Positions 7,045 through 64,000 of a DNA stretch of 64,000 nucleotides are shown piece by piece; position 1 is the stretch's first letter, and each line of letters starts with the position of its first letter. The stretch spans positions 192,185 to 256,184 of the forward strand of contig DASZZP010000038.1 of the NCBI GenBank assembly GCA_035544875.1, in the 5' to 3' direction. Made by a program: the position numbers and the translations under genes. Origin of the DNA: Thermoanaerobaculia bacterium. GTDB taxonomy: Bacteria; Acidobacteriota; Thermoanaerobaculia; Multivoradales; UBA5704. Under the pieces are notes generated by a model. That model ran no database searches. It had not been told where the DNA came from and saw only the letters and a program-made list of their open reading frames with translations.

Positions 7045-7130
7045 GACCTCCGGGAAGTGCCGCACGGCCACCACCGGCCGTGCGGCCGACCTCCGGGAAG
7101 TGCCGCACGTCCATAGCCGGACGTGCGGCC
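7045..7130. repeat. Tandem pair of 43-nt REP-like palindromic elements (first locus)
   Basis: Two units gacctccgggaagtgccgcacgNccaNNNccggNcgtgcggcc, each with an 11-bp perfect hairpin stem (gccgcacgNcc / ggNcgtgcggc). They lie between the convergent ends of the GGDEF and HAD genes. A near-identical pair recurs at 48630..48715. Confidence 0.7.
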
Positions 7131-7230
7131 GCGGCGGCGTCAGCCCGCGGGCGCACAGCTAGCCCAGCCAGTTCCCCTTCGGTCAAATTGCGGAGCGGTC
7201 AGTCCGCAGCGTGGTCAGATCGCGAGGCAG

Positions 7231-7875
7231 TCAGCCCGCGGCGCGGTCGACAAGATCGGCGAGCGCCAGCAGATCGCGGACCCGGTGGTCGGCGGGACCC
7301 GGGCGCGCGTGCGGGCGCTCGACGAAGACGGTCGTGAGGCCGAGACGGCGCGCCGCCTCGAGGTCGTAGTCGGTATAGGCCGAGACGTGCCACCAGGCGG
7401 CGGACAGCTGCTCGCCGATCCGCTCCGCGGTGCGGCGCCAGAAACGCTCGTCGGGCTTGTAGAGCCGCAGCTCCTCGGCGCATACCCAGGCGCTCAGCCG
7501 GACCCCGAGCTGAGCCTCCACTTCCTCCCGGTTCACCCGATCGCTGTTGGTCGTGGCCACGCAGGCGGCCTTGCCCAGCAGCCGGCGCAGCGCCGCCGCA
7601 GAGTCGGGAAAGAGCGGCCAGTGGCCGAGGCCGGCGGCGATCTCCTCCGCCGCCGCGCGCGGCAGTCCCACCACCGCCTCCAGGCTGCGCGCCGTGATCT
7701 CGCGATAGCTCAGGTACGCCCGCCCCTCCTCGGCGCCCTGGGCATCGACGATGCGGTCGAAGGTCGACTCGTCCACGTCGGCCCCTTGGCGCGCCAGCGC
7801 CGACAGCAGCCCGCGCCGCCAGTCGACCACCGTGCCGAAGATGTCGAACGAGAGCACTCTCGGCTGCGCGGTCAT
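7231..7875 (-). CDS. HAD-superfamily hydrolase (haloacid dehalogenase-like, subfamily IA)
   Basis: MTAQPRVLSFDIFGTVVDW (DxDxT-type motif I variant) ...VATTNSD...LYKPDERFW. The first ATG is at 7875; the track start 7893 is a TTG. Confidence 0.7.
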   Translation of the reverse strand: MTAQPRVLSFDIFGTVVDWRRGLLSALARQGADVDESTFDRIVDAQGAEEGRAYLSYREITARSLEAVVGLPRAAAEEIAAGLGHWPLFPDSAAALRRLLGKAACVATTNSDRVNREEVEAQLGVRLSAWVCAEELRLYKPDERFWRRTAERIGEQLSAAWWHVSAYTDYDLEAARRLGLTTVFVERPHARPGPADHRVRDLLALADLVDRAAG

Positions 7876-17559: not shown

Positions 17560-19661
17560 CGGCTCCTACCCGGCAGGCGAGAGAGGGCGGCGCCCAGGGC
17601 GCGGCGCGCGGACCAGTAAGCATGGGCGCCCCGCCACCAGCGGGAGTCGTGGATGGCGGCGAGCTCCCGGCGGGCCTGCCGCAGCCGCTCTTCGGCGGCG
17701 GCCAGCTCGGCACCGGTCGCCGCGAGCTCCCGGCCGGCCTGCCGCAACCGCTCTTCGGCGGCGGCCAGCTCGGCCTCAGGTCCGACGCCGGCCCGCAACA
17801 GCGGCGCGAGGCCGCCGTTGAGCCAGTTGAGCAGCGCCCAGTCGGTGCCTTTGGCCGCGATCAGCTCGAGCAGCAGCCGCGCTGCGGCAACGTCCTGCCG
17901 TCCGCCGCTGGCCAGCTCCGGCGCGAAGGCGAAGACGGTGTCGAGGACGCGGCCATGCAGCTGATGGAAGCGGGCGGCCGCGGCGAGGAAAGGGAGCGCG
18001 TCGCCGACGCCCACCAGTCCGCAACCGAGGCGCCCCTTCTCCTGCTGCTGATGCAGCGCCAGCGCCTCGACCGAGCGGCGCAGCGAACCCGGCCGCCAGG
18101 CATCGAGCCGGTAGCACCACTCGTTGTCTTCGAAGTAGGCCATCTCCACTTCCAGCGGCAAGGTGGCGAACGCCGACCAGCGCGCCAGGAGCAGCGCCCC
18201 GCTCACCCACCGGCACGGGCCGGAGCTCCCCAGCCCGGGGTCGTCGAAGCGCAGGCCGCGGCCGAGCGGCGCGAGGGTGAGGACAGCGCCGTCCTCGCGG
18301 TAGTCGCCCCCGCAAAGCTGTACCCGCCCGTCGGGGAGGACGATGGTGCCGCCGCAGGCGATGGCGGCGGAGTCGCTGTCGAGGACCTGCGCGAGGTGCT
18401 CGAGCGTGCCGGGAAGGACCTCGATGTCGTTGTCGATGAACAATACGTACTCGGTCGTGGCCCGTTCGACGCCGAGCTGCCGGCCGCCGGCACAACCCAG
18501 GTTGCGGTCGAGCTCGACGAGCTCGGCGCCGTGAGCCCGGCAGGACCGGCGCACGGCATCCCTGGCCGCCGCGGGCGAGTTGTTGTCGATCACCAGCAGA
18601 TGACAGGGAAGGCGCGCGAAGCGGCGCAGCGCGGCCAGCGCGGCCTCCGTGTGCGAGGCTCGGTTCCACGACAACATCACCACCGTGACCCGGGGCTCGC
18701 CGCCGCCCGCGAGCAGGCTGGCCGGCAGCGGGGCGAGGTTCGCCTCGGCATGGGCGACCAGCTCGCGGCGCAGGGCGTCCAGCGATCCTTCTTCGAGTGC
18801 GGCGCCGGCCGCGGGCGCCGCCTCCCGCACCCCGGGTCGTCGCACCTCGCGTTCGGGCGGCGCGGCGGACACCTCGAAGTCGGCGAGCGCGAACTCGGCG
18901 ATGGCCGGCAGTTTGTGGTAGGCGGAGGCGCGATACTGCACGGCCTTCCCCAGCAGTGCCGCGGCGATCATCACGTGAGCGCGGTCGGTGCGCACCAGCG
19001 CGGCGCCCGCGATGCGCGCCAGCCACTCCGGCAGAGCCTCGCAGACGTCCGAGATATCCACGTTGTCAGGCGGCAGGGCGAAGCTCGAGCTCGACTCGCG
19101 GTCGGTGCGATAGGCGTGCAGCACTCCGTCGCCGGCCCGTGCGAAGGGGGTGAAATCGAAGAAGAACGCGCAGTCGTGTGCGAGGCGCGCGTCGCAGAGG
19201 CCGCGGATCTGGCGCCAGGACTCCCGCTCGCGTGCGAAGACCAGGGCGCGGCTGCGCGACAGCGCGTCGCGCACGGCCTCTTCGGCGGGCTCGAAGGAGG
19301 AAGGCAAGATCACGACGCGGGCGAAACGCATCTCGGCCAGCGCCAGCACGCGCGGCATGATTTCGTGGTAGACGCGGCACCAGGCGCCTCCGCCCGAGAT
19401 CACCGCCAGCTCGCCGCTTGCCCCGGCGACCTCCTCGAAGCCGATCTCCCGGTAGTCGAGGCCGGCGAGCAGCCGTCTGGTGCCGGCCTGGATCAGCTCG
19501 TCGCCGCGATTGCCGACGCCGCGGACATAGGTGAAGCCGGCGGCGCCGCCGATCGCCGCCAGCAGCTGGCGCCGGCTCCGCTCGAGGCGCCGCCGATGGC
19601 TGGACGGCGGCGCGAAGGGCTGCGGCTCGGCGGCGGCGGGTGACGCCTCGCCCCGGCTCAC
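17556..19661 (-). CDS. Fusion protein: polysaccharide pyruvyl transferase-like domain + GT2 glycosyltransferase + C-terminal coiled-coil repeats
   Basis: N-terminus ...YVRGVGNRGDELIQAG (PS_pyruv_trans-like). Middle: VTVVMLSWNRASHTEAAL...LLVIDNNS...DNDIEV (GT2 DxD). C-terminus: ELAAAEERLRQAGRELAA repeated, from a 63-nt tandem DNA repeat. Start assigned to the GTG at 19661 (RBS GGTGAGG), which is conserved with the decayed paralog's start. Confidence 0.65.
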   Translation of the reverse strand: MSRGEASPAAAEPQPFAPPSSHRRRLERSRRQLLAAIGGAAGFTYVRGVGNRGDELIQAGTRRLLAGLDYREIGFEEVAGASGELAVISGGGAWCRVYHEIMPRVLALAEMRFARVVILPSSFEPAEEAVRDALSRSRALVFARERESWRQIRGLCDARLAHDCAFFFDFTPFARAGDGVLHAYRTDRESSSSFALPPDNVDISDVCEALPEWLARIAGAALVRTDRAHVMIAAALLGKAVQYRASAYHKLPAIAEFALADFEVSAAPPEREVRRPGVREAAPAAGAALEEGSLDALRRELVAHAEANLAPLPASLLAGGGEPRVTVVMLSWNRASHTEAALAALRRFARLPCHLLVIDNNSPAAARDAVRRSCRAHGAELVELDRNLGCAGGRQLGVERATTEYVLFIDNDIEVLPGTLEHLAQVLDSDSAAIACGGTIVLPDGRVQLCGGDYREDGAVLTLAPLGRGLRFDDPGLGSSGPCRWVSGALLLARWSAFATLPLEVEMAYFEDNEWCYRLDAWRPGSLRRSVEALALHQQQEKGRLGCGLVGVGDALPFLAAAARFHQLHGRVLDTVFAFAPELASGGRQDVAAARLLLELIAAKGTDWALLNWLNGGLAPLLRAGVGPEAELAAAEERLRQAGRELAATGAELAAAEERLRQARRELAAIHDSRWWRGAHAYWSARRALGAALSRLPGRSR

Positions 19662-20749: not shown

Positions 20750-21517
20750 CTACCATGAGCTGAGGACGACCACCTCGAGGTCGCGGCGGGGAGCGATCTC
20801 CGCCAGCACCTGCCGGCGGCGCGGCGTCACGTGGTCGCTGAGCGGGTGCATCGGCGAGGTGGTGGTCACCAGCACCGCCGGCAGTCCCAGCTCGGCGAGC
20901 AGCGCGGCCTGGAGCAGGCTGTCCTTGCCACCGCTGAAGGCCGCCGCACAGCGCCCCGCCTCGGCCAGCGGCGCCGGCCCGAGCAGCGGCGGCCCGTCGT
21001 CCAGCAGCTCGATCGAGCTCGCGCCGCCGGGGCCGCGCCCGGAGGCGCCGGCCGGCGCCTCCGCTAGGCCGCCACCGGGCTCACTCGCGGCGCCGCCCGC
21101 GGGCCGCTCCGCGCCGCCGCCTCGACGGTAGGCCCCGAGCGTCGTCAGCTCGCGCGCCAGCAGCCGGAGCCAAAACTCGCGGTGCCCGGGCTCGAGACCG
21201 ACCGGCAGCCGCACGGAGCAGGGGCGCAGGAGCGTCCAGTGCGAGTGCAGGCAGAGCAGCGCCACGGTCCACCAGAAGCCTTCAGGCAACCGGCGGCCGT
21301 CGAGGCCGGCAGGCAAACGCAAGCCGAAGGAGTGCGCGCTGTAGAGCGGTGTCGCAGGCTCGATCTGCCAGCGAAACCAGGCGCCCGCGCAGCTCACCTC
21401 CGGCGGATGGAGAACGATCCGGTGCATGGTCGGCGTCACCCGGGCGGCCGTCGCGCGCGGCCGCCCAGCCGCGCGGCGGCACGGCGCGAGCGCCAGTAGA
21501 GGTCGGCGACCCGCCAC
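20750..21517 (-). pseudogene. Truncated paralog of the PP-loop gene (N-terminal 250 aa only, ends in a premature stop)
   Basis: Protein aligns along its length to residues 1-260 of the 16030..17559 product (FRWRVEPxT..., WWTVALLCLHSHW, AAAFSGGKDSLLQAALL, LVTTTSPM) and then stops at LSSW*. Confidence 0.6.
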
Positions 21518-22511
21518 TACAGCGAGCCGTGGTCGGCGGCCAGCTCCCGCCGCAGGGCCGCCAACTCGGCCTGCGCCGCCGCCCGCTCTTGCTGCGTCGC
21601 GGCGAGCTCGCCCTGCGCCGTCGCCAGCTCACCTCGAGCCGGGCCGAGCGCCCCGCGCGCCTCGTGGAGCTCGGCCAGCAGCCCGCTCCGAAACAGCGGC
21701 GCCAGGCCGCCGCGCGTCCACTCCGTCGCCAGCCACGCTGGGCCGCGGGCGGCGAGCAGCTTGAGCAGTAGCCGCGCCCCGGCCGCGTCGCGGCCGCCAC
21801 CCGCCGAGAGCTCGGGAGCGAACACGAAGACCCCTTCGAGCACGCGCCCGTGCACGCGGTAGAAGTGGGGCAATCGCCTACAGGTAGGGAGCGATCGGCT
21901 GACCTCGGCCGCAACCTCAGGGGGCCCTTTGACGTCCAGCCCCCGTCCCAGGGGCTCGAAATGCAGCACCCCGTCGGGCTGCTCCCAGAAATCGCCGCCG
22001 CAGACAGTGCTGCGGCCGATCGCGCGTCAGCACGACTAAGGTCAAACGCGGTTCGCCGCCGCCCGACAGCAGTTCTGGCCTCAACAGCTCCAGGTTGCGC
22101 CGCGCGCGGGCGAGCAGCCGTTCGCGCGGCGGCGTCGGTGCCGGGGGAAGCGGCGGAGACGGCGCCGGCGGCACCGCCATCCCCGCCGGCAGCGGCCGGG
22201 CGAGCCGCCGGACGTCAAAACCGCCCAAGACGTACTCGGCGATCGCCGGCAGCTTGTGATAGGACGAGATGCGGTATGCCACCGTAGCCCACAGCCACTC
22301 GTCGAGAGAGCAGCAGCGGACGGAGAGGTCGATGCCGCCGGCGGGCGCCGGCGTAGATCAGCTCGTCGCCCAGATTGCCGGCGCCGCGCACGAATGTCAG
22401 GTCCGAAGGGTCGCCGATCGCTGCCAGTAGCCGCCGCCGGTTGTCCTCGATGCTGCCGGCGGGGGCCCTCGACCCCGGCTCCGGCGCCGCGGCCGGGTGC
22501 TCCGCGCTCAC
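21517..22511 (-). pseudogene. Decayed paralog of the pyruvyl-transferase::GT2 fusion gene (three out-of-frame fragments with internal deletions)
   Basis: ORF fragments 22215..22511, 21917..22282 and 21517..21969 align respectively to the N-terminus (RRRLLAAIG...FVRGAGNLGDELI), the middle (YHKLPAIAEYxLxxFxV...LSGGGEPRxTxVxL) and the C-terminus (HGRVLxxVFxFAPEL...coiled-coil) of the 17556..19661 product. Most of the catalytic domains are missing. Confidence 0.6.
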
Positions 22512-24910: not shown

Positions 24911-27900
24911 TCAACGCTCTGCCTTGAGCGCCGGCACCAGCGGCACCCGGAGCGCGCTGGCCGCGGCGACGGCGCTCGCCAGCATGCCGGCCAGCAGCAC
25001 GGCGGCCAGGGTCGCGGTCAGGGAGCGCCATGGCAATCCCCCGGCCAGTCCCGCGCCGAGCGCCTCCGGCAGCAGTCCGGCGGCGGTTCCCAGCGCCACC
25101 CCGAGTGCGAGCAGGGCCGCGTTCTCGAGCAGCAGCAGGCCGGCCAGCTGGTGCCTGCGGAAACCGAAGGCGCGAAGCGCCGCGAGCTCCCAGCGCCGCT
25201 CGACCACGTTGCGCAGCAGCACCACCGCGAGACCGCAGGTGCCGAGCAGCAGGCCGAGGCTGCCCAGGGCCTGGAAGCTCGCGAGGTAGGTCTCCTCCAC
25301 CTTGGCGTAGAGGCGCAGCCGCTCGGCAACCGGCACCACCTCGAATCCGAAGTCGCGCAGCTGGTCGCCGAGCAGGCCGGCGACGGCGTTTTCCCGCCCG
25401 CGAGCCGTGCGCACCAGGAAAAAGCTGCGCCCGCCATGGCGCGGGAAGTGGCGCGCCAGCTCTTTCTCCGGGATCAGCAGCGCGTCCTGCAAGGGGCTGC
25501 CGGCGAGCAGGCCGACGATGCGCAGCCGCACCGGCTCGCCGCGCTCGCCGGCCAGGCTCAGCTCGTCGCCGACCCCGAGATGGAGGATCCAGCGCACCGA
25601 CTGCTCGTCGCCGAGCGCCGGTACCACCTCGGACCCCGCTCCGCCAGCGCGCGCCGCGGAGCGCGCCTTGGCGAAGAGGTCCGCCAGGCTCCCCTCCCCC
25701 GCGGCCATCGCGAAGGTTCGGCGCGCCAGGAGAGGCGGCACGCCCAGCAGCCGCGGCCGCCGCGGCTGGTAGAGGTTGAGACAGCTCGCGTCGTCGCCCG
25801 GCACCGCCGGCAGGCCGACGATCTCGCCGCCGGCGAGCAGCCGCTCGGCCGGCTCGGGAAAGCCGAGCGCGCGGCGCCCGTCGCTCCGGCCGAGGTCGTG
25901 GTAGAGAGGGGTCGCGGACTCGGCGAGCAGTGTGAATCCTCCCCACTCCCGCCCCTCCCCCGCCGCGCCAGCGCGGCGGTTGGCCGCCACCAGCACCAGC
26001 ACGAAGCAGGCGCAGGCCACCAGGGCGACCGCGAGCACGCTGCGGCCCGGGTTGGCGGCGGTGTTGCGGACCCCCAGGATCATCAGGCCGCCGCCGGGCG
26101 ACTCCCGCTCGCCGACCGCCAGGCACCAGAGCGCGAAGGCGCTGACGCCGGCCGCGAGCAGACTGGCGCCGCTGCCGAAGGCGAGGGCCGGCGCGCCGCC
26201 CCCAGCGGCACGGAGAGCCACGGCCAGCACGACGCCGGCGGCGCCCGCGGCGAGGCCAACCGCCCGCCACCAGGGCCGGCGGCGCTCGCCGCGCCCCGCC
26301 GTCACGGCGCCGGCCAGCAGTTGCGCCACCGGCAGCCGGCCCATCCGGCGCACGCCGGCGGCGAGGAAGACGAGCACCGTGACGACGCTCCCCAGCCAGC
26401 CCCAGACGAAGGTCGAGGGGCTGGCCGCAAACGCGAGCCGCGGCGCGCCCGCCCCCGCTTGCAAACCGCCGAGCAGCGGCAAGGCGAAGGCGCCCGCGCC
26501 TGGGAGACCGAGCAGCGCGCCGGCGCCGGCTAGCACCAGCCCTTCGCCCAGGAAGCGGCGCCGCACCGCGCCGGCCGGGTAGCCCAGGGCCAGCAGCAGG
26601 CCGACCTCGCGCGCCCGGCGCTCGAGCCCGAGAGTGAAGAGCAGACCGGTCACCAGCGCCGCGGAGACGATCAGGAACGAGCTGAAGCTGACGAACAGCG
26701 AGCTGAAGTCGGTGCCCTCGGCGGCCGACCGCAGCCCCTCGGCGCGCACCGGGCGCAGGGCGAGGCCGAACGCCGCGGGCCGCAGGCGCGCCAGGAGGAG
26801 CGGCTCGAAACGCGCGGCGAAGGCGGCGGCGCTTTCACCCGCCGGGCAGCTGAGGCGCAGCGAGGTGAGGTCGCCGAAGCGGGTGTGCCAAAGCCGGCGG
26901 CCGGCGGCGAGGCTCACGAAGGCCTTGGGAGTGGGCCCGAAGCGCTGCCAGTATGCCTCGTCGCGCGGCCGCACCCGGTGGAGATCGACCGGAAAGGGCG
27001 GCGACCACGAGGCCATGTCGCGCGCCTGGTCGATGCCGGGGAAGGCAGGGGTCAGGCCGCGGTCCGCCGCCAGTCCGGCGAGAGCCACCACGCCGCGCAC
27101 CCTGAAGCTGGCGCTGGCGGTGGCGAGCGGCGCTCCGGCGCTGCCGCTGTCGGGCAGGAAGTAGCTCATCGCGACCCTGTCGCCGGGCCGCGCCGCGAGA
27201 TCCTCCGCCGCCCAGCTGTCGAGCAGGATGTCGTCGCCCTCGGGCAGCGCCGCCGGCTCACCGCTCGCCAGGAGCAGCTCGCCGGCGCCCAGGTCGGCTT
27301 TCGACCGAGGTACGTCAGGGGTGGTTTTCACAGCCTTCAAGCCGGTGGGAGGAGTCCCGGCCCCCCCGGCGAGCCAGCGCCTGGCAGGCCGCCTTCCGAC
27401 CGAGGTCCCAGAACGGCGGCGATCCTCTTCGCTCCATTCAAGCCGGTGGGAGGAGTCCCGGCCTCCCTGGCGAGTCAGCGCCTGGCGGGTCGCCTTCCGA
27501 CCGAGGTCCGCGAGCCGCCACTCCAAACCCCCATAGCGTCTTGCCTCACCCGCCCCACCAGCGAGCGGACCTCGGTCGGAAGGCGACCCGCGAGGCGCCC
27601 CCCGGCCATTCGCGAGCCCGGGACGGAGGGGTCCCACTGCGCTCACCATCGAGTAGGGAACGGCGCGCCCGTGGGCGGCGAGCTCGATCGCCAGGTAGGT
27701 CAGGACCGGCTGCGCCGCCGAGCCCAGCTCGACGGCGGCCGCCGCGGCGCCCTCCGCCACCGCCGGCGGCAGGAAGAACTCGCCGCTCTCGAGCGCGAGG
27801 CAGGCGGCGCCGCCGGCCGCGCCGAGCGGGCGCAGGGCAAGGCCGATGTCGTCGAGCCGCAGGCCAGCGGCAAGCGCCTTCTCCGCCCCCTGCGCCCTCA

Positions 27901-32816: not shown

Positions 32817-34171
32817 GTCCGGTCTCCCGTGACGGCGTTGCTGGCGAGGGCGAGGCCCCCTTCGGCCGGCGCCGCATCCGTAGCCGCCGGCGCGTCGGGC
32901 ACGGCGGTCGCGGCCAGCGCCGCGAACAGGCGCGAGAAATCGTGATCGAAGACGTCGCCGCGCAACACCCGAATGAGGTCCAGGCGGCAGTCGGGGAAGC
33001 GGCGGATGAATTTCGAAAAGCGGAAGTTCGGATCGTAGAAGGTGTAGACCAGGCGGCGCATGGCGTCCATACCGGCACTGAAGCGCGGCCCGAAAGCGCC
33101 GAGGCGGGCGGCCGAGAAGTCGCCCGTGGCGAGCGCGCCCAGGATCGCGTCGGCGGCGAACTCGCCCGAGCTGAAGGCGAGCAGCACTCCAGAGGAGTAG
33201 ATCGGGTCGAGGAAGCCGAAGGCGTCGCCGACCAGCACCCAGCCGTCGCCGGCGATCTGGCGCGAGCGGTAGGAGAAGTCGCGGGTGGCGAGGAAATCCA
33301 TCACCCGCCGCGCCCCGGCCAGGCGCGGCTGCAGCGGCGGGCAGCGTGCCACCTCCTCGTCGAACACCCGCTGCAGGTCGCCGCCGCGGCCGGTGACCAG
33401 GTACTCGACCGAGCCGACGACGCCGACGCTCACCCGGTCGTGCGGCAGCGGGATGTACCAGAACCACGACTCCTGCTGCTCGGTGTGCAGCACCAGCGTG
33501 GCCCCCTCGTCGATCCCGGGGTCGCGCAGGGCGCCCTCGAAGTGGGAGAAGATGGCGGCCTTCTTGAGCCGCGGATCGATCTCGCGCAGACCCAGGCGGC
33601 GCCCCAGCACCGCGCTCTGGCCTGTCGCGTCCACCACCACCTTGGCGGCGAGCTCGCGGCGGCCCTCGCCCGGCAGGTCGGCGAGGACGCCGGCCGCCCG
33701 CTCGCCGGCAAAGAGCACCTCGCGCACAGTGGCTCCCTGGCGCACTTCGACGCCGTGGTCGCGCGCGTTTTCGAGCAGCAGGCGATCGAAGTCGCGGCGC
33801 GGCACCTGCCAAGTGATCGAGCCCTCGCCCGGGTCGGTCTCCTGGAAATAGAAGGGGGCCGAGGCGCGGCCGCTCTTGGAGTAGAACTGAACGCTGTACT
33901 TGCGCGGGAACGGGCTGGCGTAGAGCCGCTCGAGCAGGCCGAGCCGGGCGAAGGTGCGGTAGGTCTCCGGCATCAGCGACTCGCCGATCTTGAACCCGGT
34001 TTCGGGCAGGCGCTCGAGCAGCGCCACCCGATGGCCGGCATCCGCGACCAGGGTGGCGACGGTCGACCCGGCAGGTCCGCCGCCCATCACGATGACGTCA
34101 TAGTCCGGGGAGTCCGCGCTCGGCGCTCTCGCCACTCTCGGCGCTCTCGCCACTCTCAGCGCTCTCAGCAT
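32813..34171 (-). CDS. FAD-dependent oxidoreductase of the flavin-dependent halogenase / geranylgeranyl-reductase fold
   Basis: DVIVMGGGPAGSTVATLVADAGHRVALLER (GxGxxG Rossmann motif) ...FKIGESLMPETY...GDAFGFLDPIYSSG. A 21-nt tandem repeat at the 5' end encodes ARAPRVARAP. Confidence 0.65.
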   Translation of the reverse strand: MLRALRVARAPRVARAPSADSPDYDVIVMGGGPAGSTVATLVADAGHRVALLERLPETGFKIGESLMPETYRTFARLGLLERLYASPFPRKYSVQFYSKSGRASAPFYFQETDPGEGSITWQVPRRDFDRLLLENARDHGVEVRQGATVREVLFAGERAAGVLADLPGEGRRELAAKVVVDATGQSAVLGRRLGLREIDPRLKKAAIFSHFEGALRDPGIDEGATLVLHTEQQESWFWYIPLPHDRVSVGVVGSVEYLVTGRGGDLQRVFDEEVARCPPLQPRLAGARRVMDFLATRDFSYRSRQIAGDGWVLVGDAFGFLDPIYSSGVLLAFSSGEFAADAILGALATGDFSAARLGAFGPRFSAGMDAMRRLVYTFYDPNFRFSKFIRRFPDCRLDLIRVLRGDVFDHDFSRLFAALAATAVPDAPAATDAAPAEGGLALASNAVTGDRT

Positions 34172-39149: not shown

Positions 39150-40378
39150 GATGCGCCGTCTCCCTTTCCCGGTCTCGCCGCAAAGCAGTAGAGCGTGCCG
39201 TCGAGCGTGCCGACCACCAGCCGGCCGCCGGCGATCGCCGGCGAGGCCTCGATCGCCGCGCCGGCGGCGAACTGCCAGACCGGCTTGCCGGTGCGGTCGT
39301 CGAGGGCGAAGATGTCGCCGCTGCGCGCCGCCGCGACCGCGAGGCCACCGACCAGCACGGGCGAGGAGTCGACCGCGGCGCGGGCGGCGAAGGTCCAGAG
39401 CTCCTCGCCGGTGCGCGGCGACAGCGCGTGCACCAGCTTATCGCGGCCGCCCACCACCAGCAGGTCGTCGCGCACCGCCGCTGAGGAGTAGTACGGAAAC
39501 TTGAGCCGCGAGTTCTCGTAGCGCCACGCCACCCTGCCGGAACGCAGGTCGACCGCCACCAGCTGGTTCTCGAAAGTGCCGACGAACGCCCGCCCCAGGG
39601 CGACCGCCGGGCTGGCGCCGAGATAGCCGCCGAGGGCGACCTTCCAGACCTCGGCGCCGTTGCGCGCCCGCAGCCGCCGCAGGTTGCCGTCGCAGCCGGC
39701 GATCAGCACCGCGTCGCCTGAGACCGCGGGCGTGGCATTGACGTAGCCCCCGGTCTCCCGGCTCCAGCGCCGCGCGCCGTCGGCCGCGGACAGGCAGTAG
39801 ACGCTGCGGTCGTAGGAGCCGAAGAGCACGCAGCCGGCGGCAAAATTGGCCGCCGAGACGATCTCGGCGCCGGTGCGGAAGCTCCAGCGGCGCCGCCCGG
39901 TGGCGGCGTCGATGGCGTGGAAGACTCCATGCCCGTCGCCGAAGTAGACGACGCCGTCGCGCACCGCCGGCGAGGAGCGAATAGGACCCTCGGCGCGATA
40001 CTTGAAACGCAGCGCGCCGCTGTCCAGGCTGAGGGCGTATAGATTGCCGTCGAGCGAACCGACGTAGGCGCTGCCGTGCCAGATCGCCGCCGTCGAGGCG
40101 ATGCCGGCGCCCGCCTTGAACGTCCACACGGGGGCGAGCTCCCGGCCGAGAGCGCCAGCGGCGCGCCCGGTGAGCTCGGGATCGCCGCGGAACAGGGCCC
40201 AGGCGGCGCCGGCCGCCTCGCCCGCTGCTTTGCCTGCCGCTGTGCAAGCCGCCTTGCCTGCCGTTTTGGAAGACGCTTTGCCTCCAACACCCGCCGCGGC
40301 ATCGACCCCTGTCGCCGCCAGCCGCAGGCAGGCCAGCGCGAGCAGCGCGGCGGTTGCGGGACGTGGGCGAGGTCGCAT
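39146..40378 (-). CDS. Secreted PQQ-like beta-propeller repeat protein 2
   Basis: Signal peptide MRPRPRPATAALLALACLRLAATG. Repeats ...GNLYALSLDSGALRFKY, VFHAIDAATGRRRWSF, VYCLSAADGARRWS, LVAVDLRSGRVAWRY, IFALDDRTGKPVWQF. Confidence 0.75.
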   Translation of the reverse strand: MRPRPRPATAALLALACLRLAATGVDAAAGVGGKASSKTAGKAACTAAGKAAGEAAGAAWALFRGDPELTGRAAGALGRELAPVWTFKAGAGIASTAAIWHGSAYVGSLDGNLYALSLDSGALRFKYRAEGPIRSSPAVRDGVVYFGDGHGVFHAIDAATGRRRWSFRTGAEIVSAANFAAGCVLFGSYDRSVYCLSAADGARRWSRETGGYVNATPAVSGDAVLIAGCDGNLRRLRARNGAEVWKVALGGYLGASPAVALGRAFVGTFENQLVAVDLRSGRVAWRYENSRLKFPYYSSAAVRDDLLVVGGRDKLVHALSPRTGEELWTFAARAAVDSSPVLVGGLAVAAARSGDIFALDDRTGKPVWQFAAGAAIEASPAIAGGRLVVGTLDGTLYCFAARPGKGDGAS

Positions 40379-46237: not shown

Positions 46238-48484
46238 TCACCGGTTCCTTGTCACGCTCAGGTTGGTGAACAGGATCTCCGCCGGCGAGTAGCCGTAGAG
46301 TCCCGGGCTGCCGTTGCGCACCGGGCGCGGGTCGCGCGCGGTGACCGTCCAGCCGGCGGGCTCCGGCTCGCCGCGCGGCCACACCTTGCCGCGGATCAGC
46401 CCCTGGTCGCCTTGCACTTCGGCCCGCAGCTTCATCGTGTACCAGACGTCCGGCGTCCACTTGAAATCGACCTGCTCCATCAGCCGCAGCTCGGTGTCCC
46501 AGGCGCGCAGCTGCAGGCGCTGGCTCGCCCCCATCAGGTCGAGGACGTAGCCGCTGGCGATCAGCCCCATGTCCGGCAGCACCTGGCCGGCCTGGGTGCC
46601 GAGCAGGTCGGCCTGCACCGTGTAGTCGCGCAGCGTCGGCGGGCCGATATAGGTGTTCGCGCGGTGGAGGCCGCGCGGCGCCGGGGGCTTGGCCAGGACC
46701 CTGCCGTAACGGGTCTCCTTGACCACGAACTTGCCGGGAGCGCCCACCCAGCCGGGCGGCGAGCTGGGCGCCAGCGCCGCGAAGTCCTCTTTCCAGGGGA
46801 GATCGGGCACCACGCGCACCCGCGCCTTGGCGGCGAGCTCGCCCCAGCGTGCGTTGATCTCTCCGGTCTGGAATCCGCGGCCGGGGTCGGCGACAAACGT
46901 GCCGTCCGCGTCGAGGCGGCCGGCCAGCCCCGCCAGCGACCAGCTCACTGCTGAGGACGCTCCGGGCGGCGGCGCCACCGCCAGGCCCTGCTCGTCGAAG
47001 GCCACGCCGCGGAAGCGCGCCGGCTCGCCCGGCCGGATCAGCACCTCGGCAGGCACCACCTGCAGCAGGCGCGCGCCCCCGGCGGCCGGCGTGCCCGCCC
47101 CGGCCGCCCTGCCTGCCGGCTCGGCCGCGCTCTCGGCCCGCAGCGGCTGCGACTTTTCGCCCAGGCAGTAGAGCCCGCTCTCGGCGGCGAAGTAGATCCG
47201 CCCGTAGGCCACCGCCGGCGAGCCGTAGATCTCGGCGAAGCGGCTGCCGTCGGCGGTGCGCAGGCGCTGCTCGTCGAGCACCTCCACGCTGCCGCGGCTG
47301 GGCTTCAGGATGTCGAACCGGCCGTTGACCTCGGCGACGTAGAGCTTGCCGTCGGCCCACACCGGCGACGCCTTGCCGATGGTGCCGAGCTTGTGCCTCC
47401 AGAGGATCTTGCCGGTCGTTGCGTCGAGGGCGGCGAGGGCGGCCGCGTTGTCCACGACGTAGAGCAGCCCGTCGTGGTAGAGCGGCGACGGGAAGCCCGA
47501 CACCACCTCGTCATTGCGCCAGAGCTCGTGCGTGCGCGTCACGTCGCCGGTGCCGGTGGCGTCGATCGCTACCACCCTGCCCTGCAGCCCGGTGTCGAGG
47601 TTCTCCTCGCCGTGGGCGGCGAAGACCACCTTGTCGTGCACGACCACCGTGTTGTTGAACGCGCCCTTGCTCAGGTGAAAGCTCCAGACCTTCTCGCCGG
47701 TGCGCGCCTTGAGCGCGTAGATCCAGCCGTCGCCCTGACCTTCGATGAGCAGCCGCTGGCCGCCGATCTCGGCCACCACCGGCGTCGTCTGGATGTTGAA
47801 ATCCTGCGGCAGCTCGCCGGGGGTCGACACCCAGCGCAGCTCGCCGGTGCGCTTGTCAAAGGCGAAGACGCGGTGGCGGGGGGGACCCTGGTCGCCCCAG
47901 CCGGCGTTGACGAAGCTGACGATCAGCCGGTCCTCGTCCACCAGCGGCGAGTGCGTGCGGCCGCCGACCCCGGAGATGAGTCCGAACTCCTCGGTCAGCG
48001 ACCGCCACCACGCGATCTTGCCGTCGCGGTCGAAGCAATACAGCAGCCCGCCGACGCCGAGCGCGTAGACGTTGCCGGTCTCGCGGTCGGCAGCCAGGCT
48101 GCCCCAGCCGACGCGGCTGAACGGCACCGCCGTGAGATAAACGTCGAGAAAACGCTCCCAGAGCTTGCGGCCGCTGGCCGCGTCGAAGCAGGCCACGCTC
48201 TCCTGGCGAGTTGGACCGTTGCCGACGCGGCCGTTGGCACAGACCCGGCCGCCGACCACCACCGGCGTCGAGCGGCCGCTCAGATCGGCCCGCCAGACCA
48301 GGTTCTCGCCCGCGGGGCTCCACTTCGAGATCAGCTGGACGTCGCTCGCGACGCCGTTCTGCTGCGGCCCGCGCCAGGAAGGCCAGTCAGCCCGGACGCG
48401 CCGTGCCCCGAGCCCGCCCGCCAGCAGGATGCATCCCAACCCGATCAGCAAGCGCCGCCACGGCATCGCTCTCGCTCCATTCAT
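46238..48484 (-). CDS. Secreted PQQ-like beta-propeller repeat protein 4 with an extra ~300-aa C-terminal domain
   Basis: Signal peptide MNGARAMPWRRLLIGLGCILLAGG, propeller repeats (...GRKLWER, ...GELRWVS, ...GEKVWSF, ...GKILWRH), then a non-propeller domain of unknown family. Start assigned to the ATG at 48484 (RBS GGTGAGGA). Confidence 0.7.
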   Translation of the reverse strand: MNGARAMPWRRLLIGLGCILLAGGLGARRVRADWPSWRGPQQNGVASDVQLISKWSPAGENLVWRADLSGRSTPVVVGGRVCANGRVGNGPTRQESVACFDAASGRKLWERFLDVYLTAVPFSRVGWGSLAADRETGNVYALGVGGLLYCFDRDGKIAWWRSLTEEFGLISGVGGRTHSPLVDEDRLIVSFVNAGWGDQGPPRHRVFAFDKRTGELRWVSTPGELPQDFNIQTTPVVAEIGGQRLLIEGQGDGWIYALKARTGEKVWSFHLSKGAFNNTVVVHDKVVFAAHGEENLDTGLQGRVVAIDATGTGDVTRTHELWRNDEVVSGFPSPLYHDGLLYVVDNAAALAALDATTGKILWRHKLGTIGKASPVWADGKLYVAEVNGRFDILKPSRGSVEVLDEQRLRTADGSRFAEIYGSPAVAYGRIYFAAESGLYCLGEKSQPLRAESAAEPAGRAAGAGTPAAGGARLLQVVPAEVLIRPGEPARFRGVAFDEQGLAVAPPPGASSAVSWSLAGLAGRLDADGTFVADPGRGFQTGEINARWGELAAKARVRVVPDLPWKEDFAALAPSSPPGWVGAPGKFVVKETRYGRVLAKPPAPRGLHRANTYIGPPTLRDYTVQADLLGTQAGQVLPDMGLIASGYVLDLMGASQRLQLRAWDTELRLMEQVDFKWTPDVWYTMKLRAEVQGDQGLIRGKVWPRGEPEPAGWTVTARDPRPVRNGSPGLYGYSPAEILFTNLSVTRNR

Positions 48485-48513
48485 CGTTCGAGTCCTCACC
48501 GCCAGTGCTGATC

Positions 48514-48778
48514 CCGAGGGATGAACGGCACTGCGATGCGGCAGTGGAGGCCTACTCGAAGCATCCATCGGATCGCCACCCGCATCCCCCGCGAGTCCCC
48601 TTCCCGGTTGTCGGAAGCCGCCGGGTCCCGACCTCCGGGAAGTGCCGCACGTCCATCACCGGACGTGCGGCCGACTTCCGAGGAGTGCCGCCCGGCCATA
48701 GCCGGACGGGCGGCCTGCCCGGGGGCGCCGGGGGGGAAGGGGACGCCCCCTCCCCCTCACAGCGGGGAGTTTCGTCTT
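48514..48778. repeat. Copy A of a ~150-nt repeated intergenic element carrying a nested REP pair
   Basis: Shares the ccgagggatgaaNggcNctgcgatNNggcNgtggaggcctactcgaagcatcNatcgg...ccccttccc core, a G-rich palindrome (gggggaaggggacgccccctcccc) and a tcgtctt tail with 63045..63192. A REP pair (48630..48715) is inserted between the core and the palindrome. Confidence 0.65.
48630..48715. repeat. Tandem pair of 43-nt REP-like palindromic elements (second locus, nested inside the larger repeat)
   Basis: gacctccgggaagtgccgcacgtccatcaccggacgtgcggcc followed by a diverged unit whose changes largely preserve the stem, though the right arm has one mismatch (ggacgggcggc where ggccgggcggc is needed). Confidence 0.7.
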
Positions 48779-49042
48779 ACCGCACGCCGCGCCATCCTGC
48801 CTCCCCCGGCGCACGCCAGCCTGCGGCTGAGCATACATCGACCTGCCGGAATCGGCTATCACCCTCCCCCTTCAGCAATGGTGTTGAAGGAAGCGCTGCC
48901 AAGAATGTCCTCCCCTGGCACTGGGTCATTCTAAAGTGACCCCGTACCCCTCCCCCTGCAGCGCGACCACGAGCGCGTAGACTGCTGGTTTCGGACTCAC
49001 CGGCGATTCAGCCGGCCGGAAGCTGGGTGAGGAGGATTCCCG

Positions 49043-49837
49043 ATGCGCATGCGTCTCGGAAGCTGGCTCATGATCGCGGCGGTGGCGGCCGGCGGGGTGG
49101 TGATCGGTCGGGTGTCCAGAGGCGCCCAACCGGGCGCCGGCGAGATGGCCGTCCGTTTGGCGCAAGAGATGGCTGTCTCGGCCTCGCGCCGGGACGCCGC
49201 CAGCAACGGCAAGCTCATCCCGCAAACCGATCGGGTGGTCTATGTGAGCAACGGCAATCCAGTCACCGGACGGCAGTATGTCGAGACCCTGGGCAAGTAC
49301 TACGCGTCGCTCAAGACGCTCGACTTCCGCTGGGACCGATGGGAGGCTTCGCCGCTGGGCGACAGCGCGGCGGTCTTCACCGGCTGGGCCACCGCCAAGA
49401 CCGTGGACCAGATGGGTAAGACCGAAGCGGGCCGAGCGCTCTTCACCATGGTCTTCGCGCGCGACGCCACCGGTTGGAAGCGGGTGATCGCTCAGAAGTG
49501 GCAGGCCCAGGTGCCGAAGGTGAGCGCTGCCTGGGCCGTCGCGCCGTCGCGCAGCGTGCCGCCTGACAGCCCGATCGCGGTCCACTTCAGCCCGGCGGTG
49601 AATGCTTCCGGCTCAGCCTTCAAGCTGGAGTGTCCGGCTGGCTCTCCGATCCCCGCGACCGCGACGCCCGAGACGCCAGGCGATGGCACGTCATTCTTGG
49701 TACGCGCGGACCACGGCCTTCCGGCGGGCGCCAATTGCCTGCTCACGGTGGCGGCGCCGCAGATCTCCGACGACCACTTCGGCCAGCCGATGGCCGAGGA
49801 CTATCGGTTCACCTTCACCGTAGCGGCCGCATCGTGA
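49043..49837 (+). CDS. Secreted SnoaL/NTF2-like (DUF4440-type) domain protein with C-terminal beta-rich domain
   Basis: GTGAGGAGG RBS, signal/anchor MRMRLGSWLMIAAVAAGGVVIG. ...YVSNGNPVTGRQYVETLGKYYASLKTLDFRWDRWEA...FTMVFARDATGWKRVIAQKW (NTF2-like fold signature). Confidence 0.55.
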   Translation: MRMRLGSWLMIAAVAAGGVVIGRVSRGAQPGAGEMAVRLAQEMAVSASRRDAASNGKLIPQTDRVVYVSNGNPVTGRQYVETLGKYYASLKTLDFRWDRWEASPLGDSAAVFTGWATAKTVDQMGKTEAGRALFTMVFARDATGWKRVIAQKWQAQVPKVSAAWAVAPSRSVPPDSPIAVHFSPAVNASGSAFKLECPAGSPIPATATPETPGDGTSFLVRADHGLPAGANCLLTVAAPQISDDHFGQPMAEDYRFTFTVAAAS

Positions 49838-61600: not shown

Positions 61601-61759
61601 CCCGCTCTCCTCCGTACCTAGCAGCTGGAAGTCCCGTGCCGGTCTCCCCGCGGTGCCGCTCGCAGGCGCCCCGGGCTCGGGCGCCAGCGGTCCTCCGCCG
61701 AGGGCCGCGGCGCCAGCGCAGCGGCGCGGTCCCAACTCACCTCATTGGAGGAAAAGCTC

Positions 61760-63022
61760 ATGGCAAGGAAATCTCGTCATCCCGAGGCGTTCAGAGCACG
61801 CGCCCTGCTGCGGTCGCTGCGGTCGCTGCCGTCGGTGCGGTCGCTGCCCGCTCTGCCTGCTCTGATCATCGGCCTCGTCAGCCCCGCTCCGATCGCCCTG
61901 CTGGCGGTCATGGCCCTGGCGGCCCCCGCCGCCGCCCAGTTCACCGGCCCCACCACACCGCCCTCCGGCGGCGCCCAGCGGCAAGCCATCACCCAGCAAA
62001 TCGGCCTGGTCAAGGTCACCATCGACTACAGCAGCCCCCACGTGCACAGCCCCGCCGGCGTCGACCGCCGCGGCAAGATCTGGGGCAAGGGGAATCTGGT
62101 GCCCTACGGCATGGCCAACCTGGGCTTCGGCACCTGCGGCGACGAGTGCCCCTGGCGGGGCGGCGCCAACGAGAACACCGTCTTCACCACGACGAACGAC
62201 GTCAAGGTGCAGGGGCAGACACTGCCCGCCGGATCCTACGGCCTCCACTTCATCCCCGGCCCGGACGAGTGGACGATCATCTTCTCCAAGAACCACACCG
62301 CTTGGGGAAGCTTCTTCTATGACGCGAAGGAAGATGCCCTGCGCGTCAAGGCCAAGCCGGCCAAGAGCGAGTACTACGAGGACGTGACCTACGAGTTCCG
62401 CGACCGCAAGCTCGACCATGCGACCGCAGTGCTGCGCTGGGAAGAGCTCGAGTTGCCCTGGGCGATCACGGTCGACAACGCCAACGACCTCTATGTCGAC
62501 AACATGCGCCGCGAGCTGCAGTCGGCCGCCGGCTTTAGCTGGGAGGGCTGGAACATCGCCGCCGGCTTCTGCCTCCTGAACAAGACCCACGTCGACCAGG
62601 GTCTGGAGTGGGCCAAGAAGGCGGCCGACCCGGCCGGCCCCGGGCAGGAGAACTTCACCACCCTCATCACTCTGGCCGAGCTCGAGCAGGCCAACGGCCA
62701 TGCCGCGGAGTCCAAGAAGGCGCGCGACAAGGCGTTGCGCCACCCGACGGCCAACCCTGCCGATCTCCACCAGTACGGCCGCCAGCTCATCGGCCAGAAG
62801 CGCGCGGCCGACGCGATGGAGGTCTTCCAGCTCAACGCCAAGCTCCACCCCAACGCCTGGCCTGTCCACGTCGGGCTCGCCCGCGGTCACTCGGCCCTCG
62901 GCCACTACAAGGAAGCGCTGGCGGAGGCCCAGCTCGCCCTGCCGCAGGCGCCGAACTCGCCCAGCCGCAAGCAGCTCGAGCAGCTGATCGAGACGCTCAA
63001 GGGGGGCAAAGACATCAACTGA
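61760..63022 (+). CDS. Secreted DUF2911-domain protein with C-terminal TPR-like region
   Basis: GGAGGA RBS, ATG 61760, signal peptide with an LRSLRSLPSVRSLPALPAL tandem repeat. ...VKVTIDYSSPHVHSPAGVDRRGKIWGKGNLVPYGMANLGFG...WRGGANENTVFTTTNDVKVQGQTLPAGSYGLHFIPG..EWTIIFSKN (DUF2911 signature). Confidence 0.65.
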   Translation: MARKSRHPEAFRARALLRSLRSLPSVRSLPALPALIIGLVSPAPIALLAVMALAAPAAAQFTGPTTPPSGGAQRQAITQQIGLVKVTIDYSSPHVHSPAGVDRRGKIWGKGNLVPYGMANLGFGTCGDECPWRGGANENTVFTTTNDVKVQGQTLPAGSYGLHFIPGPDEWTIIFSKNHTAWGSFFYDAKEDALRVKAKPAKSEYYEDVTYEFRDRKLDHATAVLRWEELELPWAITVDNANDLYVDNMRRELQSAAGFSWEGWNIAAGFCLLNKTHVDQGLEWAKKAADPAGPGQENFTTLITLAELEQANGHAAESKKARDKALRHPTANPADLHQYGRQLIGQKRAADAMEVFQLNAKLHPNAWPVHVGLARGHSALGHYKEALAEAQLALPQAPNSPSRKQLEQLIETLKGGKDIN

Positions 63023-63044
63023 GGTCCCACCGACGGTGCCGTTA

Positions 63045-63192
63045 CCGAGGGATGAAAGGCGCTGCGATATGGCGGTGGAGGCCTACTCGAAGCATCGATC
63101 GGGTCTCCCCCCGCAACCCCTCGATCCCCTTCCCACCCCTCCGGGGGGGAAGGGGACGCCCCCTCCCCTGCGCACGGACCAATCTCGTCTTT
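63045..63192. repeat. Copy B of the ~150-nt repeated intergenic element (no REP insertion)
   Basis: About 85% identical to the core of 48514..48778, including the G-rich palindrome ggggggaaggggacgccccctcccc at 63149..63172. Lies 53 nt upstream of the lipoprotein gene start. Confidence 0.65.
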
Positions 63193-63244
63193 GCCTGGTC
63201 CGCGGCATTGTGCCCGGCGATGAGAAGCGGATGGCGGGTATACT

Positions 63245-64000
63245 TATGCGCGTGCATCCAGTGCGGACCGGGGTGCGCCGTCTCGGCGCTTCGCTCGCGG
63301 GAGCGCTCGCCTTGGGCGCTTGCGCTCAGGCGCCGCCCCCGGCTCTGGTCTACAACAAAACGGACCCCCCTGCCGCTCCAGGCAAGAGCGCGCCCGCCGG
63401 CCAGAGCGAGGCCGACGAATACACCCGCTACGAGCTGCTCGAGCCGGCGAGCTCGAAGTTCCACATCCTCTACGAGGTGACCGCCACCACGCCGGGCGCC
63501 GCGGCCTTCTATAACCCGATCCGCAAGGGGAGCGAGGCGAGCGGCGAGGCGGTCTTTGACCAGGCCACCTCGGCGCCGCTCCCTTTCACCGTGGTGAGCG
63601 GCGCCGAGGCCAAGGCCGCCGGCCTCGACGACGCCGATCCGGCGACCAGCTACATCCGCGCCGCGCTGCCCCACCCGGTGCCGGCAACGGGAGGCGTGCG
63701 GCTGCTGATCGAAAAGACTTACCTCGACCCGAAGAGCTACTACCGCGAAGGGGACGACCGCATCGTCTTCTCCCGCTCGCTGGGCATTCGCCGCAACGCG
63801 GTCGTGCTGCCCGCCGGCTATGAGGTGGTCGCCGCCAACGTCCCGGCCCAGGTCCTGACCGAGCCGGACGGCCGCATCAAGGTGAGCTTCGTCACGACCG
63901 GCCCCGGCGCGCCGCCGGTGCTGATCCGGGCTAGGGCCGCCACCCGTCCGGCGCCACCTGCCGCCGCCGCGCCGATCGCCCCGAACGCTCCAGGCTCCGC
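63245..64000 (+). CDS. Putative lipoprotein, 3'-truncated by the window end
   Basis: MRVHPVRTGVRRLGASLAGALALGACAQ (lipobox LALGAC). Open reading frame continues to the last base. No recognised domain. Confidence 0.55.

What the first reader, a model, noticed from the sequence alone, without database searches (positions are those of the whole stretch)
48514..48778. About 150-nt conserved intergenic element (two copies) upstream of secreted-protein genes; one copy has a REP pair inserted into it
Seen in sequence:
- 48514..48778 and 63045..63192 share an approximately 85% identical core (ccgagggatgaaNggc...ggaggcctactcgaagcatc...ccccttccc).
- They also share a G-rich palindrome gggggaaggggacgccccctcccc and a tcgtctt tail.
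- In copy A the two REP units sit precisely between the core and the palindrome.
- Both copies are in the same orientation, upstream of plus-strand genes for exported proteins (49043 and 63245).

Inference: a cis-regulatory RNA/DNA motif or small non-autonomous element. The nested REP shows that REP insertion post-dates it.
Basis: seen in the sequence. Interest (0 to 1): 0.55.

Follow-up and report, generated by a model that had tools for sequence, protein, structure and literature searches.

The report
Small insertional repeat, not a leader
The two look-alike intergenic stretches are copies of a roughly 170-base selfish repeat that has inserted between, and even inside, unrelated genes of soil Thermoanaerobaculia (Acidobacteriota), not a control element for the secreted-protein genes next to them.

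Summary
Copy A (48490..48779) and copy B (63021..63192) are homologous, same strand, far beyond chance, and A carries a nested REP doublet. The regulatory reading does not hold. The same element occurs at unrelated loci in related Thermoanaerobaculia metagenome contigs, including nusG-rplK, fabD-fabG, upstream of a TonB-like gene and upstream of modB. It lies in both orientations relative to genes. Close relatives have empty sites: a 15-36 nt nusG-rplK spacer against 192 nt when filled. In one contig it is an exact 177-nt in-frame insertion in a gene's 3' end, a site that is empty in this window. A peptide search found it inside annotated BirA, NuoD and NRPS proteins that appear to belong to the window's own MAG. 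Anatomy: a variable ~60-nt module, a ~90-nt core that is 79-95% identical between copies and holds a GC-rich hairpin, and a short tail. There is no Rfam match, essentially no covariation, and no consistent promoter, terminator, terminal inverted repeat or target duplication. Best reading: a new family of non-autonomous insertional repeats, like Rickettsia RPEs or MITEs, mobilising enzyme unknown. It is a new member of a known kind, of modest interest.

The parts
48490..48779 (+). Copy A of the element, whole, including the nested insertion. The ends are uncertain by about 6-10 nt.
   Evidence: D11, D19; nhmmer E=1e-24 and 5e-10 for the two halves.
48490..48546 (+). Copy A variable module. It is 77% identical to B, 56% to L038 and 24-36% to the other copies.
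48547..48605 (+). Copy A, first part of the conserved core (GGCCTACTCGAAGCATC ... CCCCTTCCC).
48606..48729 (+). A secondary 124-nt insertion in the loop of the core hairpin. It holds two tandem 43-nt REP units (48629..48671 and 48672..48714) plus about 23 and 15 nt of unrelated sequence.
   Evidence: D12, 87% to 7034..7130; REP palindromes at 48642..48671 and 48685..48714; the other copies have ACCCCTCC here.
48730..48755 (+). Copy A, second part of the core: G-rich arm and palindrome GGGGGGGAAGGGGACGCCCCCTCCCC.
48756..48779 (+). Copy A tail, ending TTTCGTCTTA. It contains a small hairpin, CTCCCC/GGGGAG.
63021..63192 (+). Copy B, uninterrupted. Module 63021..63077, core 63078..63168 (hairpin CCCCTTCCC 63126..63134 with GGGAAGGGG), tail 63169..63192.
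   Evidence: nhmmer E=3e-46.
7044..7129 (+). The only other REP doublet in the window, the same family as the one nested in copy A.
   Evidence: (D12).
39150..39175 (-). Empty site. It is the window's orthologue of the position where contig L038 carries a 177-nt in-frame copy of the element (...GGGAAAG|GGAGACGG..., just before the ATGA overlap with the radical-SAM gene).
46238..48466 (-). PQQ/BamB-like beta-propeller gene. Its start codon lies about 24 nt from the module end of copy A.
49043..49837 (+). SnoaL_3/Big_5 protein gene, 264 nt beyond the tail of copy A.
61757..63024 (+). DUF2911-TPR gene. Its native stop codon abuts the module end of copy B, and its C-terminus (..GKDIN) matches those of orthologues.
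63246..64000 (+). Lipoprotein gene (lipobox LALGAC), 54 nt beyond the tail of copy B. It runs off the end of the window.

Best explanation
A and B are two copies of a previously undescribed family of small (about 165-180 nt) non-coding, non-autonomous insertional repeats in a lineage of soil Thermoanaerobaculia (Acidobacteriota).

Anatomy. Each copy has three parts: a variable module of about 60 nt, a strongly conserved core of about 90 nt, and a semi-conserved tail of about 25 nt that usually contains CGTC. The core is built around a 13-bp GC-rich hairpin (CCCCTTCCC-ACCCC-TCC-GGGG-GGGAAGGGG) with an overlapping alternative palindrome.

Shown. The element is gained and lost as a unit at gene boundaries and inside genes.

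Inferred. Copies are made by an enzyme supplied in trans, of unknown identity. The lack of clear terminal inverted repeats and target duplications, and the hairpin-rich ends, fit a single-strand or REP/RPE-like mechanism better than a classical DDE-type MITE.

After insertion the element is simply carried along in the host transcript. It persists where it does no harm, either in spacers or inside genes in the single reading frame that has no stop codon. Any effect on neighbouring genes, such as a stable hairpin or a G-quadruplex in the mRNA, would be a by-product and not a dedicated regulatory function. In copy A a REP doublet later inserted into the apical loop of the core hairpin.
For: Copies elsewhere:
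- A metagenome scan with a 21-base pattern found true copies in L026, L027, L029 and L030. A genome scan found L024, a Thermoanaerobaculia MAG.
- An nhmmer profile found one more in L038 (E=5e-38), and exactly two in the 64-kb window.

Unrelated contexts and both orientations:
- nusG-rplK in L026 and fabD-fabG in L030.
- A TonB-like gene in L027 and modB in L029.

Filled versus empty sites:
- The nusG-rplK spacer is 192 nt in L026. It is 15 nt in L044 (NusG 99% identical), 36 nt in L041-43 (98%), and 19-22 nt in L034 and L035.
- In L038 exactly 177 nt (59 codons) are inserted in frame in the 3' end of a gene. L037, L040 and the window itself have 19 nt at that position.

Inside annotated proteins:
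- The open-frame peptide of copy B hits a BirA-type biotin ligase at residues 198-254, between the catalytic and C-terminal domains. It also hits NuoD at residues 23-77 and an NRPS fragment at 1371-1425.
- These are NCBI Thermoanaerobaculia MAG proteins HVT57631, HVT57873 and HVT61656. The window's own proteins are HVT58458 and HVT58471. From this accession range I infer at least five copies in one genome.

Conservation:
- The core is 79-95% identical between non-orthologous copies. Orthologous PQQ genes of the window and L038 are only 68% identical at four-fold degenerate sites.

Absence of other signals:
- No Rfam family matches and no sigma-70-type promoter is found.
Against: - No autonomous partner or transposase was found.
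- Terminal inverted repeats and target-site duplications are not consistent between copies, so the transposition mechanism is unproven.
- Copy number per genome is known only as a lower bound.
- The very high conservation of the core across genomes, and the placement of five of seven copies within 0-10 nt of a Shine-Dalgarno sequence, could instead reflect a selected function.
- The assignment of the three HVT proteins to the window's genome rests on accession ranges only.
Confidence: 0.75

Rival explanations
1. Domesticated or mobile post-transcriptional module. In the reverse-complement orientation the element sits in the mRNA immediately upstream of a ribosome-binding site. Its competing GC hairpins, or its G-quadruplex, would tune translation or stability of the downstream cistron. 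The variable module would adapt it to each gene.
For: - In A, L026, L027, L030 and L038 the module end lies 0-10 nt upstream of a Shine-Dalgarno sequence, with a GTAGGC-to-ATG distance of 69-85 nt.
- Every copy has the motif GGGGTGGGAAGGGGATCGAGGGG on that strand.
- The segment GGGGAAGGGG can pair with either of two C-rich partners.
- The core is more conserved than synonymous sites.
- There is one compensatory U-A to C-G change in the hairpin.
Against: - Copies B and L029 have the opposite orientation relative to the downstream gene.
- Close relatives do without the element at the same sites.
- In short operon spacers any insertion is necessarily near a ribosome-binding site.
- The downstream gene functions are unrelated.
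- Apart from the one hairpin pair there is no covariation.
Confidence: 0.12
2. Dispersed small-RNA gene family. Each copy would be an independently transcribed small RNA on the + strand, with a conserved scaffold and a variable 5' targeting region. It would end at the palindrome and the T-rich tail.
For: - The architecture of conserved scaffold plus variable region.
- In copy A a hairpin followed by TTTCGTCTTA scores as terminator-like.
- The + strand of copy B folds better than its shuffles (z = -2.65).
Against: - No promoter-like site is found in either copy.
- The terminator-like hairpin is not conserved in B, L026, L029, L030 or L038.
- Copies sit antisense inside the essential operons nusG-rplK and fabD-fabG, and in frame inside coding sequences.
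- No Rfam match.
Confidence: 0.06
3. One reading: a cis-regulatory leader (riboswitch-like RNA or operator DNA) controlling the + strand exported-protein genes at 49043 and 63246.
For: - Both window copies are on the + strand and upstream of genes with signal sequences.
- The alternative pairings of GGGGAAGGGG resemble an expression platform.
Against: - Copy A ends 264 nt before its supposed target and abuts the divergent gene instead.
- Orthologous DUF2911 and PQQ loci in relatives lack the element.
- Other copies precede or interrupt unrelated genes in either orientation.
- There is no covariation and no Rfam hit.
Confidence: 0.03

Closest known systems
Rickettsia palindromic elements (RPE), as summarised in Di Nocera et al. 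2013, PMC3733652
   Same: Both are palindromic repeats of about 100-180 bp, dispersed in intergenic DNA and also inserted in frame in genes that apparently stay functional. Here the cases are a gene 3' end in L038 and a BirA interdomain linker. Neither has a defined transposase. The tail carries CGTC, the tag the paper reports at one end of RPE and CGTC-type REPs.
   Different: The phylum differs and there is no recognisable sequence relationship. This element has a long non-palindromic conserved core and a variable module. The geometry of CGTC REPs (an 8-9 bp stem with a 4-5 nt loop next to the tag) is not present.
MITEs of bacteria (for example Correia/NEMIS, RUP, Nezha)
   Same: Both are short, non-coding and multi-copy, show presence/absence polymorphism between relatives, are inserted close to genes, and are co-transcribed with them.
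   Different: Terminal inverted repeats conserved across copies and a fixed-length target duplication define MITEs and are not seen here. Only copy-specific 7-8 nt complementarity between the two ends was found.
ERIC/IRU and REP/BIME intergenic repeats
   Same: They also sit in transcribed spacers of operons in either orientation, with stable hairpins that may affect mRNA. REP units of the classical kind are present in this very window and nested in copy A.
   Different: REPs are 20-40 bp units (PMC3733652). ERIC is a single long imperfect palindrome confined to enterobacteria and vibrios (from my own knowledge). This element is modular and unrelated in sequence.
Non-autonomous derivatives of IS200/IS605 (PATE-type elements)
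   Same: They also have hairpin-rich ends and no target duplication, and sequence-specific, strand-specific insertion would explain an orientation bias. All six complete copies have R-R-A-C just outside or at the tail end (AAGAC, GGAC, AAAAC).
   Different: No conserved left-flank tetranucleotide could be fixed, because the boundaries are uncertain by about 6 nt. No Y1 or TnpB gene with matching ends is known.

Membership tests
Classical MITE | Short, non-coding, several dispersed copies. | tested here: met
   Seven distinct DNA copies in the window and five further contigs, plus three inferred from proteins. Indels between copies break every frame but one.
Classical MITE | Presence/absence polymorphism at orthologous sites. 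| tested here: met
   Seen at the nusG-rplK spacer and at a gene 3' end in the PQQ gene cluster.
Classical MITE | Terminal inverted repeats conserved among copies. | tested here: not met
   The ends differ between copies. There is only copy-specific 7-8 nt complementarity in 4 of 6 copies, and none in A or B.
Classical MITE | Target-site duplication of fixed length. | tested here: inconclusive
   The L038 junctions share at most AAC, and the L026 junctions share at most T. Flanking direct repeats are not significant.
Classical MITE | A cognate autonomous IS with the same ends. | not testable with these tools
REP (GTAG- or CGTC-tagged; PMC3733652) | A 20-40 bp palindromic unit with a terminal GTAG or CGTC tag adjacent to the stem. 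| tested here: not met
   The element is about 170 nt. CGTC is in the tail of 4 of 6 copies and GTAG is at the core boundary on the reverse strand. No conserved stem of the described geometry adjoins either.
RPE-like in-frame selfish repeat (functional analogy, not sequence membership) | Insertion in frame in protein-coding genes that stay open. | tested here: met
   The L038 insertion of 177 nt = 59 codons keeps the native last residues and the ATGA overlap. A BirA protein carries the peptide between its domains.
Riboswitch or cis-regulatory leader | Fixed orientation and position upstream of functionally related genes. | tested here: not met
   Both orientations occur and the neighbouring genes are unrelated.
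Riboswitch or cis-regulatory leader | A structure supported by covariation. | tested here: not met
   RNAalifold predicts 26 pairs and reports 2 in which both sides change. Only one of these is a clean compensatory change in the hairpin (L029, U-A to C-G). The covariation term is +0.75.
Any Rfam family | A match at or near the gathering score. | tested here: not met
   No hits at gathering score over the whole window. The best E-value hits are 20 bits against thresholds of 45-83.
Intrinsic terminator | A GC hairpin immediately followed by a T run, conserved across copies. | tested here: not met
   Only copy A scores. The tails of the other copies do not fold into such a hairpin.
IS200/IS605-derived element | A conserved target tetra- or pentanucleotide 5' of the left end, no duplication, and subterminal hairpins. 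| tested here: inconclusive
   An R-R-A-C motif lies at the tail-side junction in all six complete copies. Whether it is flank or element cannot be decided.

The most novel reading that the evidence does not exclude
The element is a mobile RNA-level module and not inert selfish DNA. Its conserved core would be a hairpin/G-quadruplex switch and its variable module a gene-specific adaptor. It would insert or be retained immediately 5' of ribosome-binding sites, where it would set the translation or decay of the downstream cistron. It would tolerate being translated in its one open frame. That would be a transposable post-transcriptional regulator in Acidobacteriota.
Probability: 0.1. Interest if true: 0.65.

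Novelty: new member of a known kind. Interest (0 to 1): 0.33.

Why it matters
- Annotation. The two stretches should be labelled as repeat elements, not as a candidate riboswitch.
- Assembly. Two Logan contigs (L001 and L039) end inside or at a copy, so the family can break short-read assemblies of this lineage.
- Protein annotation. Some annotated proteins, such as BirA, NuoD and an NRPS, carry insertions or extensions of about 60 residues derived from the repeat.
- Biology. It adds an uncultured soil acidobacterial lineage to the few groups in which palindromic repeats are known to invade coding sequence in frame. It also provides natural filled/empty pairs for studying how such elements move.

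Tried and rejected
- Genome-collection scan with the 18-mer GAGGCCTACTCGAAGCAT.
- Viral-contig scans. There was no true copy. L031 is an unrelated phage hairpin.
- Plasmid BLAST of copy B. No match.
- Promoter hypothesis. No sigma-70-like sites.
- Terminator hypothesis. Only copy A scores, and the feature is not conserved.
- Coding hypothesis for the + strand ATG at 48521. All A/B differences are non-synonymous, there is a 2-nt indel, and L027 is in another frame, so it was rejected by inspection.
- Hairpin CACTGC/GCAGTG in the module. It is kept through G-U pairs in B but broken in L038, so it is not conserved.
- Orthologous DUF2911 loci (L032, L033) and PQQ loci (L037, L040). They hold no element, and downstream synteny is not conserved.
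- Exact termini. Several readings of direct repeats at the ends (for example L029, CAGTTTTGTTCTAGT against CAGTTTCGTCTTAGT) were considered. Exact-substring tests against shuffles were not significant.

Full report
**Observation.** The two stretches are real homologues.
- 48490..48589 and 63021..63120 are 82% identical over 100 nt. 48728..48801 and 63141..63214 are 73% identical (D11 and D19).
- The 20-mer GGAGGCCTACTCGAAGCATC and the 24-mer GGGGGAAGGGGACGCCCCCTCCCC each occur exactly twice in the window and never in 100 shuffles.
- In copy A, 124 nt (48606..48729) separate CCCCTTCCC from the G run. Copy B has the 8-nt loop ACCCCTCC there.
- That stretch contains two tandem 43-nt REP units, 87% identical to the only other REP doublet in the window at about 7044..7129 (D12).

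**Setting in the window.**
- Copy A lies in a divergent spacer. One end is about 24 nt from the ATG (48466, minus strand) of a PQQ/BamB-like propeller gene. The other end is 264 nt from a SnoaL_3/Big_5 gene at 49043.
- Copy B fills the spacer between the stop codon of a DUF2911-TPR gene (63024) and a lipoprotein gene (ATG 63246).
- The DUF2911 C-terminus matches its orthologues, so the gene end is native.
- The source is a Thermoanaerobaculia MAG. Two window proteins are 100% identical to NCBI HVT58471.1 and HVT58458.1, on a 350,704-nt contig.

**Known RNA families and signals.**
- No Rfam family reaches its gathering score anywhere in the window. E-value scans of both regions give only chance-level hits.
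- No sigma-70-type promoter is found in either region. A terminator-like site is found only in the tail of copy A, and the tails of the other copies do not form it.

**Copies elsewhere.**
- The genome scan was mostly wasted on coding matches but found one true copy in a Thermoanaerobaculia MAG, L024.
- A more specific metagenome scan found L026 (the same sequence as L024), L027, L029 and L030.
- An nhmmer profile found only the two copies in the window and no second copy in any of those loci. It later found one in L038, a forest-soil scaffold whose PQQ protein is 80% identical to the window's.
- L001 and L039, short-read Logan contigs, end at or inside a copy.

**Anatomy (alignment A2).**
- Variable module: about 60 nt, 23-77% identical between copies. 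A, B, L038 and L027 form one subfamily.
- Core: about 90 nt, 79-95% identical, beginning sharply at GGCCTACTCGAAGCATC.
- Tail: about 25 nt, usually ..TTTCGTCTTA.
- The consensus fold contains essentially one feature, the hairpin CCCCTTCCC-ACCCC-TCC-GGGG-GGGAAGGGG. It shows a single compensatory change (U-A to C-G in L029), and the covariation term does not favour the structure.
- GGGGAAGGGG can alternatively pair with the downstream CCCCCTCCCC.
- The reverse strand of every copy holds a canonical G-quadruplex motif.

**Context of the other copies.**
- L026: the element fills the nusG-rplK spacer, antisense to both genes.
- L030: it fills the fabD-fabG spacer, antisense.
- L027: it lies upstream of a TonB-like gene, antisense to my reference orientation.
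- L029: it lies 25 nt upstream of modB, in the sense orientation.
- The element therefore occurs in both orientations next to unrelated genes. This excludes a dedicated leader for exported-protein genes.

**Filled and empty sites.**
- The nusG-rplK spacer is 192 nt in L026. It is 15 nt in L044 (NusG 99% identical), 36 nt in L041-43 (98%), and 19 and 22 nt in L034 and L035. In L036 it is 98 nt of unrelated sequence. L036 carries NusG HVT57213.1, apparently from the window's own genome.
- In L026 the old TAG stop codon of nusG is still recognisable to the right of the insertion, and the element supplies a new TGA.
- In L038 exactly 177 nt lie between GCCAAAAC and TGGAGATC in the last codons of a 485-residue gene. 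L037, L040 and the window (about 39163, minus strand) have an uninterrupted 19-nt stretch there.
- The L038 insertion adds 59 codons in frame. It keeps the native last residues and the ATGA overlap with the next gene.

**Copies inside genes.**
- Only one of the three reverse-strand frames is free of stop codons through the core, and it is the frame used in L038.
- Searching that peptide from copy B against 1.84 billion representative proteins gave three informative hits:
  - a BirA-type biotin ligase with the peptide at residues 198-254, between the catalytic domain (52-165) and the C-terminal domain. This leaves about 90 residues more between the matched segments than in E. coli BirA;
  - NuoD, with the peptide in an N-terminal extension;
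  - an NRPS fragment, with the peptide in its C-terminal tail.
- The fourth hit (P0364, E = 5e-7) clusters with a sponge protein and had no aligned stretch, so I set it aside.
- All three informative hits are NCBI Thermoanaerobaculia MAG proteins (HVT57873, HVT57631, HVT61656) in the same accession range as the window's proteins. I infer that they come from the same genome, which would then hold at least five copies on four contigs.

**Conservation.** Four-fold degenerate sites of the orthologous PQQ genes of the window and L038 are 68% identical. The cores of non-orthologous copies in these genomes are 83-94% identical. This means either constraint on the core, for example recognition by the mobilising enzyme, or recent spread.

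**Ends.**
- I could not fix the termini better than about 6 nt.
- There is no inverted repeat shared by all copies.
- Four of six copies have copy-specific 7-8 nt complementarity between module and tail (p = 0.02-0.04 each against shuffles; my own Fisher combination over all six copies gives about 0.006). A and B have none.
- Flanking direct repeats are not significant, and the two filled/empty pairs do not agree on a duplication.
- All six complete copies have R-R-A-C at the tail-side junction.

**Unexplained pattern.** In five of seven copies the module end lies 0-10 nt upstream of a Shine-Dalgarno sequence.

**Conclusion.**
- The element is best described as a new family of small insertional repeats.
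- It works like Rickettsia RPEs in being palindromic, lacking clear terminal inverted repeats or target duplications, and tolerating in-frame insertion (background from PMC3733652). It works like MITEs or ERIC in being dispersed, polymorphic and co-transcribed.
- It fails the defining tests of a classical MITE, of tagged REPs, of a riboswitch and of a terminator.
- How it moves is inferred, not shown.
- The nested REP doublet in copy A is a later event, since copy B and the five copies from other contigs all have the short intact loop.

Noticed in passing
L036 1356..1453: The nusG-rplK spacer of what appears to be the window's own genome is 98 nt. It contains four tandem 8-nt units (CTGGCGCC/CTGGCTTC/CTGGCTCC) and a GC hairpin, unrelated to the element. 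Close relatives have 15-36 nt here.
   Followed up: no
window 48467..49042 compared with L037, L038 and L040 around 8100..10000: In three related contigs a 577-600 residue PQQ_2 gene precedes the orthologue of window gene 46238..48466. The window instead has copy A and a divergent SnoaL/Big_5 gene, so copy A sits at a synteny breakpoint.
   Followed up: partly
window 27312..27513: A 101-nt unit repeated twice in tandem, 82% identical.
   Followed up: no
window 16962..17402 vs 20767..21276, and 19469..19588 vs 22334..22453: Paralogous blocks 73-79% identical, about 3.8 and 2.9 kb apart, suggesting a duplicated gene pair.
   Followed up: no
window 17654..17774 and 34119..34168: A 63-nt tandem repeat (89-97% identical) and an 18-nt tandem repeat (CTCGGCGCTCTCGCCACT).
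   Followed up: no
window 63122..63160 and 48590..48606, minus strand; all other copies: A canonical G-quadruplex motif, GGGGTGGGAAGGGGATCGAGGGG, lies on the reverse strand of the core in every copy.
   Followed up: partly
window 63005..63013 and 63185..63193: The native end of the DUF2911 gene (GGCAAAGAC) is the exact inverted complement of the sequence at and just past the tail of copy B (GTCTTTGCC). This 9-nt inverted flank is unexplained.
   Followed up: partly
window 7130..7240: Just after the first REP doublet there is a run of similar short motifs (GTCAGCCCGCG, GGTCAGTCCGCAGCG, GGTCAGATCGCGAGGC, AGTCAGCCCGCG).
   Followed up: no
P0362 (NuoD, HVT57631.1), residues about 375-440: Besides the element-derived N-terminal extension, this NuoD has a second proline-rich low-complexity insertion splitting the Complex1_49kDa domain match into two stretches.
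   Followed up: no
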